From Escherichia coli (GTDB lineage Bacteria > Pseudomonadota > Gammaproteobacteria > Enterobacterales > Enterobacteriaceae): DNA of 64,000 bases. The stretch lies in NCBI RefSeq assembly GCF_044324785.1, contig NZ_CP172127.1; one strand, given 5' to 3'. Made by a program: the position numbers. Shown piece by piece: positions 6,001 through 9,000 of this stretch; position 1 is the stretch's first letter, and each line of letters begins with the position of its first letter.

Positions 6001-9000
6001 AAAACTGGCGAAAAAACAGGGTAAAACGCCAATTGTCGTGCGTGACAAAGCCGGGTTTTACGTCAATCGCATTTTAGCGCCTTACATTAATGAAGCTATC
6101 CGCATGTTGACCGAAGGTGAACGGGTAGAGCACATTGATGCCGCGCTGGTGAAATTTGGTTTTCCGGTAGGCCCAATCCAACTTTTGGATGAGGTAGGAA
6201 TCGACACCGGGACTAAAATTATTCCTGTACTGGAAGCCGCTTATGGAGAACGTTTTAGCGCGCCTGCAAATGTTGTTTCTTCAATTTTGAACGACGATCG
6301 CAAAGGCAGAAAAAATGGCCGGGGTTTCTATCTTTATGGTCAGAAAGGGCGTAAAAGCAAAAAACAGGTCGATCCCGCCATTTACCCGCTGATTGGCACA
6401 CAAGGGCAGGGGCGACTCTCCGCACCGCAGGTAGCTGAACGGTGTGTGATGTTGATGCTGAATGAAGCAGTACGTTGTCTGGACGAGCAGGTTATCCGTA
6501 GCGTGCGTGACGGAGATATTGGCGCGGTATTTGGCATTGGTTTTCCGCCATTTCTCGGTGGTCCGTTCCGCTACATCGATTCTCTCGGTGCGGGTGAAGT
6601 GGTTGCAATAATGCAACGACTGGCCACGCAGTATGGTTCCCGTTTTACCCCTTGCGAGCGTTTAGTCGAGATGAGCAAGCGTGGGGAAAGTTTTTGGAAA
6701 ACAACTGCAACTGACCTGCAATAAGAAGGTCAAAGCTATATGAATCCGCGCTGAATGGCGGAGTGTTGCTCAAAATGTAAACGCATATTGACTATACTTA
6801 CGCCATTGAGGTAAAAAACAGCGTTTCATTCGGTGAATGGATAAGGCACAATGCCGGCCACCGTTTTCTTTCTCTGGTTTCAGATGAAAGAAAACGGGCG
6901 AATCTGGTTAACAAAAGCGGTGCAATATGCAAGTTTTTATCATGCGTCACGGCGACGCAGCCCTCGATGCCGCCAGTGATTCGGTTCGTCCTCTGACTAC
7001 TAACGGTTGTGATGAATCTCGCCTGATGGCGAACTGGCTGAAAGGTCAAAAAGTGGAAATCGAACGCGTTCTGGTGAGCCCGTTCCTGCGAGCCGAGCAA
7101 ACACTGGAAGAAGTAGGGGATTGTCTGAACCTGCCTTCCAGTGCAGAAGTTCTGCCGGAGTTAACGCCCTGCGGCGATGTTGGTCTGGTCAGTGCCTATT
7201 TACAGGCGTTGACCAATGAAGGTGTTGCTTCGGTACTGGTGATCTCCCACTTACCCTTAGTCGGGTATCTGGTTGCTGAGTTATGTCCGGGCGAAACGCC
7301 GCCTATGTTTACCACCTCGGCCATTGCCAGCGTAACGCTTGATGAAAGCGGAAACGGCACATTCAACTGGCAGATGAGCCCATGTAATCTGAAGATGGCA
7401 AAGGCGATTTAATACGCATGCACAAGGCCCGCTGGCGTAAGCTATCGGGCCTTTATTTTTCTGGCAATGTTGAATTTATTCAATCTTATTGTACTAATAA
7501 TGATCCGCTTGTGATCGAATGGTCTTTATTTTATACGGCATGACGCTTTTATTCGTGAGAATTTACATATTGAAAGAGAATTTACTTTTATTCATAAATT
7601 ATTTTTTCTGGAAGCATTTTTAGGTAAATAATGACTAAGGTGAAAATATTATTGGGTCTTGATTTTATATTAATTATAGTGTTTTAATATTATATCGTTG
7701 CGAAATTAATATCACAAGATAGTCATTGCCATGTGATTGTTTTTGACTTTGATTTATTCACTGTATTTTTGCATTTGCCGTTTTTTTGAACTCATTCTTC
7801 ATAACTGAGATGAAAAATTTCAGTAATTATTATTCCTGCCTATTAATTAAGTATTTCTAACTTTGAATGTTAGAAAATCTAAATTGCTTCAGTCATATTA
7901 AAATATCAATATGTTCGGCACGCCAAAGAATATTGATTCAAGGGACCTGTTTTTTCAGGATCTGAAAATATGTTCATTGGCTGGTTAAAAGTCGCTGCAA
8001 AAAATTGAAGAAGTTCTGCGTCAATATTTCAGTTGGCTTATATTCTAATTATTTATGATTTAAGGACAAATAATGAGTAAGTTTGTAAAAGCAGCAGTTG
8101 CCACGGCAATGCTTATGGGGGCGCTGACTTCAGCATCAGTCGTTGCCGCAGGGAATAACGGTACAGTGAGATTTTACGGCACAATTGAAGACTCCCCGTG
8201 CTCAATTGTTCCTGACGATCATAAACTGGAAGTGGATATGGGCAGCATCGGTACGGGTTCTTTAACCGGCGGCAAAAAAACCACACCAAAAGATTTCCAG
8301 ATTCGTTTACAGGACTGTAATTTCAATACAGAAACGACAATGTCCACCACATTTACCGGTAATCCATACTCCACTAAAACAGATAACTATTCTTTGTCTA
8401 ACATGGATAATGGAACTGAAATTCCAAACGTTAGCCTGGTTATCGGTGACCAGCACGGTACAGGTTATGCTATGGGAGCAGAGATTAAGCAACCTATCGT
8501 GAAGGACAGTTCAACGGGAAAAGGCAAGCCTAAACAAACTCTGAACTTTAAAGCATGGTTAGTGGGTGAAACGGATGCTGTAACACCAACACCGGCACCG
8601 TTTGAAACGCTGACGACGTTCCAAATCACGTATCTCTAATGTATTTCCCCCATAGCTGCAAAGTTATGGGGTTTATAACTACCAAATAACTAAATTATAA
8701 AAAATCATGGATGGATACGCCGATGCCAGAACATTCTTTTCTCCGTTTACGGGGGCTTTCGTGGTGGATTGCTCTGGCAATTTCTGGAAGTCCATTTAAT
8801 GCCCTGGCAGACGATACCATTCAGTTTGATGGCCGATTTCTTGATTTAAAAGGCAATACCAAAATTGATTTGGGCCGTTTTTCGCAAAAAGGCTATGTAG
8901 AACCGGGAAAATATAACTTACGCGTTCATGTAAATAATCAGCCGTTACCTGACGACTACGATATCTACTGGTACGCAACTGAAAACGATCCGAATAAATC

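What the first reader, a model, noticed from the sequence alone, without database searches (positions are those of the whole stretch)
7463..8072. Large AT-rich control region upstream of the yfc fimbrial operon
About 600 bp of AT-rich non-coding DNA precedes yfcV, typical of silenced fimbrial promoters. It contains short palindromes (for example ttgaatttattcaa at 7469-7484) and small candidate ORFs (for example 7631-7687, 18 codons MTKVKILLGLDFILIIVF, with an AGGT-like element upstream). No fimS-like terminal inverted repeats were identified by eye, so an invertible switch is not supported.
Basis: partly seen in the sequence, partly recalled or inferred. Interest (0 to 1): 0.3.

Follow-up and report, generated by a model that had tools for sequence, protein, structure and literature searches.

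The report
Silent AT-rich promoter spacer of Yfc fimbriae
This is the ordinary, non-coding, AT-rich promoter spacer between sixA and the cryptic Yfc fimbrial operon of E. coli. The K-12 version is already known as an H-NS-bound "promoter island".

Summary
**Verdict: real, but ordinary and essentially already known.** Bases 7413-8072 are the 660-bp sixA-yfcV spacer. Its GC is 0.28-0.30, the lowest in a 64-kb window that averages 0.51.

- **Nothing coding or RNA-like.** No gene is annotated here in any listed related genome, and there is no credible Rfam match.
- **Palindromes and inverted repeats are at shuffle level.** The example palindrome is mutated in relatives.
- **The 18-codon ORF is not real.** It is frameshifted in 7 of 9 genomes that carry this allele.
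- **No invertible switch.** There are no significant terminal repeats and no adjacent recombinase. 633 of 634 genomes with this allele match as one co-linear piece.
- **The K-12 orthologous spacer is published** as an H-NS-bound "promoter island" with no productive transcription start in culture.

New detail: the spacer and the whole yfc operon form a hyper-divergent allelic cassette, 50-80% identical between E. coli lineages, with sharp boundaries at the sixA stop codon and upstream of smrB. Four main allele types cover 98% of 5,426 genomes.

Inside the diverged spacer, a few short modules are conserved across at least 8 allele families:
- a weak promoter-like TTGnnn-17-nAnnAT followed by CAC(A/G)CCAAAGAATA;
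- an inverted partner TATTCAATGG;
- an invariant 35-nt ribosome-binding region.

Their function is inferred, not shown.

The parts
7424..7462 (+). sixA intrinsic terminator: hairpin AAGGCCCG...CGGGCCTT at 7424-7453, followed by TATTTTTCT
   Evidence: RNA fold -22.8 kcal/mol, z = -3.0, 1 of 200 shuffles as good. The GCCC/GGGC stem core is conserved across most of the aligned allele families. The simple terminator scan missed it because the loop exceeds 8 nt.
7463..8072 (.). AT-rich non-coding spacer (the finding). GC 0.277, TpA steps 0.10 against 0.044 for the window, A/T tracts 13 per kb against 3.5 per kb.
   Evidence: No feature is annotated under the match in any listed genome. The only Rfam hit is a sub-threshold match on the terminator.
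7470..7483 (.). Chance feature.
   Evidence: Broken in 7 of 9 genomes of the same allele family (TTATGCAA or TTTTTTAA). The count of such repeats is within shuffle expectation.
7631..7687 (+). Not a gene.
   Evidence: An extra A (GTGAAAAATATT) shifts the frame to MTKVKNIIGS* in 7 of 9 same-allele genomes. The ATG is absent in the K-12 allele. Every shuffle has an ORF at least this long. The ORF spans the -35 and -10 of the distal promoter-like site.
7646..7696 (+). Distal conserved block (GTCTTGAT at 7656-7663; TTAATATTATAT at 7685-7696). It holds the counterpart of the K-12 SELEX-predicted promoter: TTGGGT 7652-7657, 17-nt spacer, TATAGT 7675-7680.
   Evidence: Conserved across 8 allele families. 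The K-12 prediction TTGAAA-17-TATAGT is from PMC3946193. The TATAGT hexamer itself is kept only in the window-type and K-12-type alleles.
7689..7717 (-). Best consensus sigma-70-like match in the spacer, TTGTGA-17-TATAAT, pointing away from yfcV. Probably a non-productive promoter-island site.
   Evidence: 10 of 12 match. Partly conserved between alleles (my reading of the alignments). The DNA downstream of it on the minus strand (7463-7680) is the least conserved part of the spacer.
7884..7920 (+). Proposed proximal core promoter: -35 TTGCTT 7884-7889, 17-nt spacer, -10 CAATAT 7907-7912, conserved CA at 7919/7920 as -1/+1. This gives a leader of about 153 nt. Inferred.
   Evidence: The architecture TTGnnn-17-nAnnAT-(5-7 nt)-CAC is present in 114 of 121 related sequences. 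There are 15 distinct spacers, only 48% identical to one another. It matches only 6 of 12 consensus positions, so the simple scan did not list it. No TSS data are available for it.
7919..7933 (+). Conserved box CACGCCAAAGAATAT (block 3), left arm of a conserved imperfect inverted repeat.
   Evidence: Near-invariant in all allele families and in Pseudocitrobacter vendiensis.
7969..7990 (+). Conserved box TATGTTCATTGGCTGGTTAAAA (block 4; TATTCAATGGCTGGGTATAAA in most alleles), right arm complementary to block 3.
   Evidence: RNAalifold pairs it with block 3 in both the 6-sequence and the 44-sequence alignments, but with no compensatory changes. The window-allele hairpin 7918-7985 folds at -21.3 kcal/mol, z = -2.9; other alleles give z from +0.1 to -2.4.
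8038..8075 (+). Invariant translation-initiation region TTATATTCTAATTATTTATGATTTAAGGACAAATA plus ATG. Shine-Dalgarno AAGGA lies at 8062-8066, 6 nt before the ATG at 8073.
   Evidence: Almost unchanged across families that are otherwise 45-66% identical, and in another genus. The exact 25-mer spanning it recovered at least 120 metagenome contigs.
8073..8639 (+). Major fimbrial subunit gene of the yfc locus (yfcV allele), first gene of the operon the spacer controls.
   Evidence: 188 aa, 65% identical to K-12 YfcV. Annotated as 'fimbrial protein' in strain N3, followed by usher, chaperone, three fimbrial subunit genes and a StfH/YfcO-family adhesin.

Best explanation
The 660-bp sixA-yfcV spacer is the cis-regulatory region of the cryptic Yfc chaperone-usher fimbrial operon.

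**What it contains.** It holds no gene, no known RNA family and no invertible element. It starts with the sixA terminator. The rest is about 610 bp of 28%-GC DNA, rich in TpA steps and A/T tracts.

**How it most likely works (inferred by orthology and composition).** This DNA is coated by H-NS and keeps the operon silent in ordinary culture. It behaves like the promoter island described for the K-12 allele: many weak, overlapping promoter-like sites on both strands that bind RNA polymerase but give no productive transcript. Expression then requires anti-silencing or activation. Over-produced TosR (in CFT073) or BolA (in K-12) raises yfcV mRNA.

**Where transcription most likely starts (inferred from phylogenetic footprinting only).** The productive promoter is probably the weak proximal element TTGCTT-17-CAATAT at 7884-7912, with a start at about 7919/7920. 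That would give a leader of about 153 nt. The leader would begin with a conserved box (7919-7933) that can pair with a second conserved box (7969-7980). It would end in an invariant Shine-Dalgarno region.

**Evolutionary setting.** The spacer is part of a 7.2-kb hyper-divergent allelic cassette covering the whole yfc operon. Recombination exchanges this cassette between lineages, with breakpoints at the sixA stop codon and upstream of smrB.
For: **Shown here**
- Gene order and coordinates.
- Lowest GC in the window, with a high density of TpA steps and A/T tracts.
- 5 of the 24 promoter-like sites in 20 kb fall in this 660 bp, which is what its composition predicts.
- No credible Rfam family and no annotated feature in any listed genome.
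- The sORF is frameshifted and the palindrome is mutated in same-allele genomes.
- Repeats and ORFs sit at shuffle level.
- One co-linear piece in 633 of 634 genomes.
- The divergence profile drops from 94-99% to 49-63% identity just past the sixA stop (7413; the window spanning it is 87-89%). It recovers at about 14640.
- Allele census at 80% coverage or more: K-12 type 3072, CFT073 type 1206, window type 633, O157 type 429, out of 5426 genomes.
- Conserved modules across at least 8 families and in Pseudocitrobacter.

**From the literature, on the K-12 or CFT073 allele**
- The K-12 spacer is a promoter island bound by H-NS (PMC3661553).
- RpoD and RpoS holoenzyme SELEX peaks lie in the spacer, with an HNS flag (PMC3946193; PMC5493296).
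- yfc fimbriae are described as 'functional but cryptic', and many cryptic chaperone-usher fimbriae of commensal E. coli as H-NS-repressed (PMC3559732).
- The only 5' end assigned to yfcV in K-12 TSS profiling lies 642 nt upstream, inside the sixA terminator hairpin (PMC3415461 supplement).
- Induction by TosR (PMC5956150) and by BolA (PMC4337573).
Against: - No H-NS binding, transcription start or expression data exist for this allele. It is only about 55% identical to the K-12 spacer, so silencing is transferred by orthology and composition.
- The proposed proximal promoter matches only 6 of 12 consensus positions, and no TSS data set supports it.
- A distal block (7646-7696) is also conserved and is the site chosen by the SELEX study in K-12, so the real start could lie there.
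- The block 3/block 4 pairing has no compensatory substitutions. In most alleles it is no more stable than shuffled sequence.
Confidence: 0.8

Rival explanations
1. The operon is transcribed from the distal promoter. This is the counterpart of the K-12 SELEX prediction: TTGGGT-17-TATAGT at 7652-7680, start at about 7687. It would give a leader of about 385 nt that contains all the proximal conserved boxes as RNA elements.
For: - K-12 genomic SELEX assigns TTGAAA-17-TATAGT to yfcV (PMC3946193).
- The surrounding block (GTCTTGAT...TTAATATTATAT) is conserved across 8 allele families.
Against: - The TATAGT hexamer and the TTGnnn at -35 are not kept in the O157, CFT073, 06-00048, L037 and L066 alleles.
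- The SELEX promoter is a sequence pick inside a binding peak, not a mapped start.
- No TSS was found there in K-12.
Confidence: 0.2
2. The spacer encodes an unannotated small RNA or antisense transcript. It would be driven leftwards by the strong minus-strand promoter-like site TTGTGA-17-TATAAT (7717 to 7689).
For: - This is the best consensus match in the region, 10 of 12.
- A -10-like element on that strand recurs in several alleles.
Against: - The DNA it would transcribe (7463-7680) is the least conserved part of the spacer and is partly deleted in CFT073.
- There is no Rfam match and no terminator-like site on that strand.
- Promoter islands are reported to give only abortive oligonucleotides (PMC3661553).
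Confidence: 0.07
3. The spacer is a phase-variation switch. It would be either a fimS-like invertible element or a pap-like Dam/Lrp methylation switch.
For: - Many fimbrial operons are phase-variable.
- Three GATC sites are present (7502, 7513, 7959), and two of them are invariant within this allele family.
Against: - There are no inverted repeats above chance. The near-matches I1, I3 and I4 are not co-linear as one inverted repeat.
- There is no recombinase and no papI/papB-like gene next to the spacer.
- 633 of 634 genomes are co-linear.
- The two invariant GATC sites are 11 bp apart rather than about 100. The third is GAGC in 6 of 9 relatives. None is shared by all alleles.
Confidence: 0.03
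4. The 18-codon ORF at 7631-7687, or another mini-ORF, encodes a small hydrophobic protein or a regulatory leader peptide.
For: - It has an ATG with AGGT 5 nt upstream and a hydrophobic sequence.
- The start region resembles the yfcV start, 13 of 14 nt (repeat D6).
Against: - It is frameshifted to a 10-codon product in 7 of 9 same-allele genomes.
- The start codon is absent in the K-12 allele.
- Its length is trivially expected.
- It lies upstream of both candidate transcription starts.
Confidence: 0.02

Closest known systems
E. coli K-12 yfcV/sixA 'promoter island' (Panyukov & Ozoline 2013, PMC3661553) and SELEX target (Shimada et al. 2014, PMC3946193)
   Same: Same chromosomal position: between sixA and the first gene of the yfc operon. 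Similar length (680 against 660 bp) and GC (0.32 against 0.29). Same conserved modules.
   Different: Only about 55% nucleotide identity. The window carries a different allele, found in 634 of 5426 complete genomes. Its usher is intact, whereas K-12 yfcU is a pseudogene. H-NS and RNA polymerase binding have been measured only for the K-12 allele.
Other H-NS-bound promoter islands in front of E. coli chaperone-usher operons (yadN, ecpR, sfmA, ybgD, elfA, yehD, yraH; Table 1 of PMC3661553)
   Same: Long AT-rich spacer in front of a major-subunit gene, with dense promoter-like signals and little or no productive transcription in the laboratory.
   Different: No dedicated regulator gene lies next to the yfc spacer. 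The cis modules found here are specific to yfc.
fimS invertible promoter of type 1 fimbriae
   Same: A promoter-bearing AT-rich segment of a few hundred bp upstream of a fimbrial major-subunit gene.
   Different: No flanking inverted repeats above chance, no adjacent recombinase, and no orientation polymorphism among 634 genomes.
pap-type Dam/Lrp methylation switch
   Same: A fimbrial regulatory region that contains GATC sites.
   Different: GATC spacing and conservation do not fit. There are no papI/papB homologues at the locus.
5'-terminal stabilising stem-loops of long-lived mRNAs such as the ompA leader (recalled from memory, a lead only)
   Same: If transcription starts at about 7920, blocks 3 and 4 would form a stem beginning 3-4 nt from the 5' end.
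   Different: No covariation, weak thermodynamic support in most alleles, and the start site is unmapped.

Membership tests
H-NS-silenced promoter island | Markedly AT-rich relative to the genome, with many TpA steps and A/T tracts | tested here: met
   GC 0.277 against 0.512. TpA frequency 0.10 against 0.044. A/T tracts 13 per kb against 3.5 per kb.
H-NS-silenced promoter island | Unusually high density of promoter-like sites on both strands | tested here: met
   5 of the 24 sites in 20 kb lie in this 660 bp, on both strands. The density equals what the composition predicts: 5 against 4.1 +/- 2.4. PlatProm, the algorithm that defines promoter islands, was not available.
H-NS-silenced promoter island | H-NS occupancy in vivo | not testable with these tools
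   Reported for the K-12 orthologous spacer only (PMC3661553 Table 1; PMC3946193).
H-NS-silenced promoter island | RNA polymerase binds but there is little productive transcription | not testable with these tools
   K-12 shows RpoD and RpoS SELEX peaks. No TSS was found inside the spacer in Kim et al. 2012. There are no data for this allele.
H-NS-silenced promoter island | Association with horizontally exchanged or variable genes | tested here: met
   The spacer and operon are 50-80% identical between lineages, whereas the flanks are 94-99% identical.
fimS-like invertible switch | Inverted repeats flanking a promoter-bearing segment of a few hundred bp | tested here: not met
   The longest perfect distant inverted repeat is 9 nt, and 88% of shuffles reach that. 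The imperfect pairs are not co-linear.
fimS-like invertible switch | Site-specific recombinase gene nearby | tested here: not met
   The neighbours are sixA and fimbrial structural genes. None is annotated as a recombinase in the 18.7 kb of strain N3. The rest of the window was not screened. CFT073 has ipuA/ipuB about 19-20 kb away, beyond the fadL side.
fimS-like invertible switch | Both orientations found among genomes | tested here: not met
   633 of 634 matching genomes align as a single same-strand piece over at least 80% of the spacer.
pap-like Dam/Lrp switch | Two GATC sites about 100 bp apart in Lrp sites, plus papI/papB-type regulators | tested here: not met
   GATC sites at 7502 and 7513 are 11 bp apart. 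GATC at 7959 is lost in 6 of 9 relatives. No regulator genes are present.
Small-protein gene | Reading frame conserved in relatives and longer than chance | tested here: not met
   Frameshift in 7 of 9 genomes. All shuffles contain an ORF of at least 18 codons.
Sigma-70 promoter (proximal candidate 7884-7912) | -35 and -10 hexamers at fixed 17-bp spacing, conserved in relatives | tested here: met
   TTGnnn-17-nAnnAT is present in 114 of 121 sequences, with 15 different spacers.
Sigma-70 promoter (proximal candidate 7884-7912) | Mapped transcription start | not testable with these tools
   No start was reported there in the one K-12 data set I could read. The other data sets were not held or were truncated.
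Structured regulatory 5' leader (thermometer, CsrA site or stabiliser hairpin) | Base pairs supported by covariation and by stability above background | tested here: inconclusive
   The block 3:block 4 helix is predicted in the alignments, but with 0 compensatory changes. z-scores range from +0.1 to -2.9 by allele. The hairpin at the ribosome-binding site gives z = -1.4, -0.07 and -0.05. yfcV is absent from the CsrA supplementary tables.
Rho-independent terminator (sixA) | GC-rich hairpin followed by a U-run | tested here: met
   7424-7462, -22.8 kcal/mol, z = -3.0.

The most novel reading that the evidence does not exclude
A few short modules stay conserved inside an otherwise saturated, hyper-divergent spacer. 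They are kept across at least 8 allele families of Escherichia and in Pseudocitrobacter:
- the weak promoter TTGnnn-17-nAnnAT;
- the box CAC(A/G)CCAAAGAATA at about +1 to +15;
- its inverted partner TATTCAATGG, 42-51 nt downstream;
- a 35-nt invariant ribosome-binding region.

The most novel reading is that these form a dedicated, still undescribed control circuit for Yfc fimbriae. It could be a 5'-terminal leader stem-loop acting on mRNA stability or translation. Alternatively, it could be a pair of operator sites for an unknown regulator.
Probability: 0.2. Interest if true: 0.35.

Novelty: already known. Interest (0 to 1): 0.12.

Why it matters
It matters little beyond housekeeping.

- **Annotation.** The result confirms that a long gap in annotation is a genuine regulatory spacer. 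The eye-catching palindromes and mini-ORFs in very AT-rich DNA are noise.
- **Typing.** The yfc locus, promoter included, exists as deeply diverged alleles: four main types cover 98% of complete E. coli genomes. This bears on the use of yfcV as a PCR or typing marker of uropathogenic strains.
- **Follow-up.** The few conserved boxes give concrete targets for anyone who wants to learn how this cryptic fimbria is switched on.

Tried and rejected
- **Rfam.** A scan at permissive threshold gave only a sub-threshold hit (18.7 bits against a gathering score of 39) to a Bradyrhizobiaceae sRNA family, lying over the sixA terminator. Rejected as chance.
- **One long inverted repeat.** Pairs I1, I3 and I4 have similar spacing (427-443 nt). 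However, their coordinate sums differ and both arms move in the same direction, so they are not co-linear. Rejected.
- **Upstream ORF at block 4.** An ATG in TTCAATGG is present in 8 of 9 families. The peptides range from 3 to 30 codons in different frames, there is no Shine-Dalgarno, and the window allele lacks that ATG. Rejected (my reading).
- **Hairpin over the ribosome-binding site (thermometer or CsrA type).** It is not more stable than shuffles and folds differently in CFT073. yfcV is not in the CsrA supplementary tables. Left as unsupported.
- **Block 3/4 as a rigid pair of operator half-sites.** The spacing varies from 42 to 51 nt and is not phased (my count), which argues against a fixed bridging complex.
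- **Resemblances by eye to sigma-54, IHF and RcsB boxes.** None was conserved in the window allele. These were recalled consensus sequences, not tests.
- **TSS data sets.** Thomason 2015 is not held. The Cappable-seq table is truncated well before this locus. The Conway 2014 supplements are not held.
- **H-NS high-affinity motif TCGATAAATT (recalled from memory).** Only 2 hits with up to 2 mismatches in the spacer. Uninformative.
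Full report
**What is at the coordinates.** The window runs fadI (3270-4580), fadJ (4580-6724), sixA (6927-7412), a 660-bp gap, and then a 188-aa fimbrial major subunit (8073-8639). An 883-aa usher and a 249-aa chaperone follow. The closest complete genome, E. coli N3, is 99.8% identical over the gap. It annotates the same order, continuing with three more fimbrial subunit genes, a StfH/YfcO-family adhesin and smrB. K-12 has the same arrangement on the other strand, with the genes named yfcV to yfcO. The first gene is 65% identical to K-12 YfcV.

**Composition and terminator.** GC is 0.277 for 7463-8072 and 0.295 for 7413-8072, against 0.512 for the whole window. This is the lowest-GC 600 bp in the 64 kb. 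The first 50 bp of the gap hold the sixA terminator, a hairpin at 7424-7453 plus a T-run, at -22.8 kcal/mol and z = -3.0.

**The sub-features.**
- *Palindrome.* It is TTGAAT-tt-ATTCAA at 7470-7483, one base inside the quoted limits at each end.
- *ORF.* 7631-7687 does read MTKVKILLGLDFILIIVF*, with AGGT 5 nt upstream of the ATG.
- *Statistics.* In 500 dinucleotide shuffles, the count of local inverted repeats (8 against 4.9 +/- 2.9) and the longest distant inverted repeat (9 nt against a mean of 9.6) are unremarkable. Every shuffle contains an ATG ORF of at least 18 codons.
- *Conservation.* I aligned nine genomes that carry this allele at 94-100% identity. The palindrome is mutated in seven. 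An extra A shifts the ORF to a 10-codon product in seven. The GATC inside a second palindrome (7952-7968) is GAGC in six.
- *Other checks.* No gene is annotated under the match in any listed genome, and Rfam gives nothing credible.

These details are noise from AT-rich sequence.

**Invertible or methylation switch.** There are no terminal inverted repeats above chance. No recombinase or papI/papB-like gene lies next to the spacer. 633 of 634 genomes with this allele match as one same-strand piece, so no orientation polymorphism exists in the assemblies. The two GATC sites that are invariant within the family lie 11 bp apart and are missing from other alleles.

**What is already known about the locus.**
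- The K-12 sixA-yfcV spacer is one of 78 "promoter islands". These are AT-rich segments packed with promoter-like sites that bind RNA polymerase yet give almost no full-length RNA. The spacer is marked as H-NS-bound in two ChIP data sets (PMC3661553).
- Genomic SELEX finds RpoD and RpoS holoenzyme peaks there. It lists a predicted promoter TTGAAA-17-TATAGT with an HNS flag (PMC3946193, PMC5493296).
- In K-12 TSS profiling, the only 5' end assigned to yfcV lies 642 nt upstream, inside the sixA terminator hairpin (PMC3415461 supplement). No productive start was seen in culture.
- yfc is counted among the core-associated fimbriae and described as functional but cryptic; cryptic chaperone-usher fimbriae of commensal E. 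coli are described there as H-NS-repressed (PMC3559732).
- yfcV mRNA rises when TosR (CFT073) or BolA (K-12) is over-produced.

The window region shares the relevant properties. It is AT-rich, has 2.3-fold more TpA steps and 3.7-fold more A/T tracts than the window average, and holds 5 of the 24 promoter-like sites found in 20 kb. That density is what its base composition predicts.

**What the comparison adds: alleles.** The spacer is not one sequence in E. coli.
- *Census in 5,426 complete genomes, at 80% coverage or more:* window type 633, K-12 type 3072, CFT073/ST131/Nissle type 1206, O157 type 429. Together these are 98% of genomes, always one chromosomal copy.
- *Rarer types* appear in strains 06-00048 and E69, in E. 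whittamii, and in metagenome contigs.
- *Divergence.* The families are only 45-72% identical to one another, yet all have 26-32% GC and lengths of 514-687 bp.
- *Boundaries.* Identity between the window and K-12 or CFT073 is 94-99% through fadJ and sixA. It falls to 49-63% right after the sixA stop and stays at 51-84% through the operon. It returns to 88-99% near 14640, before smrB.

The control region therefore belongs to a 7.2-kb allelic cassette with sharp boundaries.

**What the comparison adds: conserved modules.** Within this divergence a few blocks persist.
- *Distal block, 7646-7696.* It holds the counterpart of the K-12 SELEX promoter, although the TATAGT hexamer is kept only in the window and K-12 types.
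- *Proximal promoter-like element.* TAAATTG with a fixed 17-nt variable spacer and nAnnAT; in the window, TTGCTT 7884-7889 and CAATAT 7907-7912. It is followed after 5-7 nt by CAC(A/G)CCAAAGAATA (7919-7933). This architecture is present in 114 of 121 sequences, with 15 different spacers.
- *Block 4.* TATTCAATGGCTGGGTATAAA (7969-7990).
- *Ribosome-binding region.* A 35-nt region (8038-8072) that is virtually invariant, even in Pseudocitrobacter.

I infer that the proximal element is the productive but weak promoter. It matches 6 of 12 consensus positions. The start would be at about 7919/7920, giving a leader of about 153 nt. This rests on footprinting alone.

**The inverted boxes.** Blocks 3 and 4 are complementary (CCAAAGAATA against TATTCAATGG). 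RNAalifold pairs them in both alignments, and in the window allele the hairpin is stable (-21.3 kcal/mol, z = -2.9). There is, however, not a single compensatory change among 44 distinct leaders. In most alleles the fold is no better than shuffles. The distance between the boxes varies from 42 to 51 nt. That fits an RNA loop better than a rigid protein bridge, but it settles nothing. A hairpin over the ribosome-binding site is not supported. I leave these modules as candidate regulatory elements of unknown mechanism.

**Verdict.** The flagged palindromes and ORF are chance features. The region is the ordinary, already described kind of H-NS-silenced AT-rich fimbrial promoter spacer, here in a less common allele. 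The allelic cassette structure and the conserved promoter-proximal boxes are useful details rather than surprises.

Noticed in passing
window 7413-14640: The whole yfc operon together with its promoter spacer is a hyper-divergent allelic cassette, 50-84% identical to K-12 and CFT073. It is flanked by 94-99% identical core genes, with breakpoints at the sixA stop codon and just upstream of smrB. Four main allele types cover 98% of 5,426 complete E. coli genomes.
   Followed up: yes
window 8711-11362: The usher gene is intact here (883-aa ORF; PGAP in strain N3 starts it 4 codons later). K-12 yfcU is annotated as a pseudogene.
   Followed up: partly
K-12 NC_000913 (U00096.2 coordinate 2454310, minus strand); equivalent to window ~7440-7450: Kim et al. 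2012 TSS profiling assigns to yfcV a 5' end that lies inside the descending arm of the sixA terminator hairpin. It looks like a processing or terminator-associated end rather than a promoter.
   Followed up: partly
L030, L040, L130 (metagenome contigs); H71 (strain XJW9B277): A few sequences keep the invariant ribosome-binding region but have unrelated DNA upstream, from insertions or rearrangements. One K-12-type genome has an IS1 inserted in the spacer.
   Followed up: no
L013 (JAIJJM010000567.1): A 2.2-kb contig labelled as a Collinsella sp. MAG carries a yfcV allele 97% identical to the window's. This is almost certainly E. coli contamination of the bin.
   Followed up: no
window 51-900: A second AT-rich stretch (GC about 0.31) holds a cluster of promoter-like hits at 150-920. 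By offset from the N3 annotation, its left part overlaps a 'hypothetical protein' gene next to fadL.
   Followed up: no
window 56192-57110: A 919-bp AT-rich spacer (minimum GC about 0.31) lies between divergent ORFs. From their sequences, without a search, I take these to be alaA (yfbQ) and the LysR-type regulator lrhA. It is another long regulatory gap.
   Followed up: no
L003 31729-33675 (CFT073): CFT073 carries the tyrosine invertases ipuA/ipuB and the phase-variable adhesin gene upaE about 10-20 kb beyond fadL. That region lies outside this window's left end.
   Followed up: no
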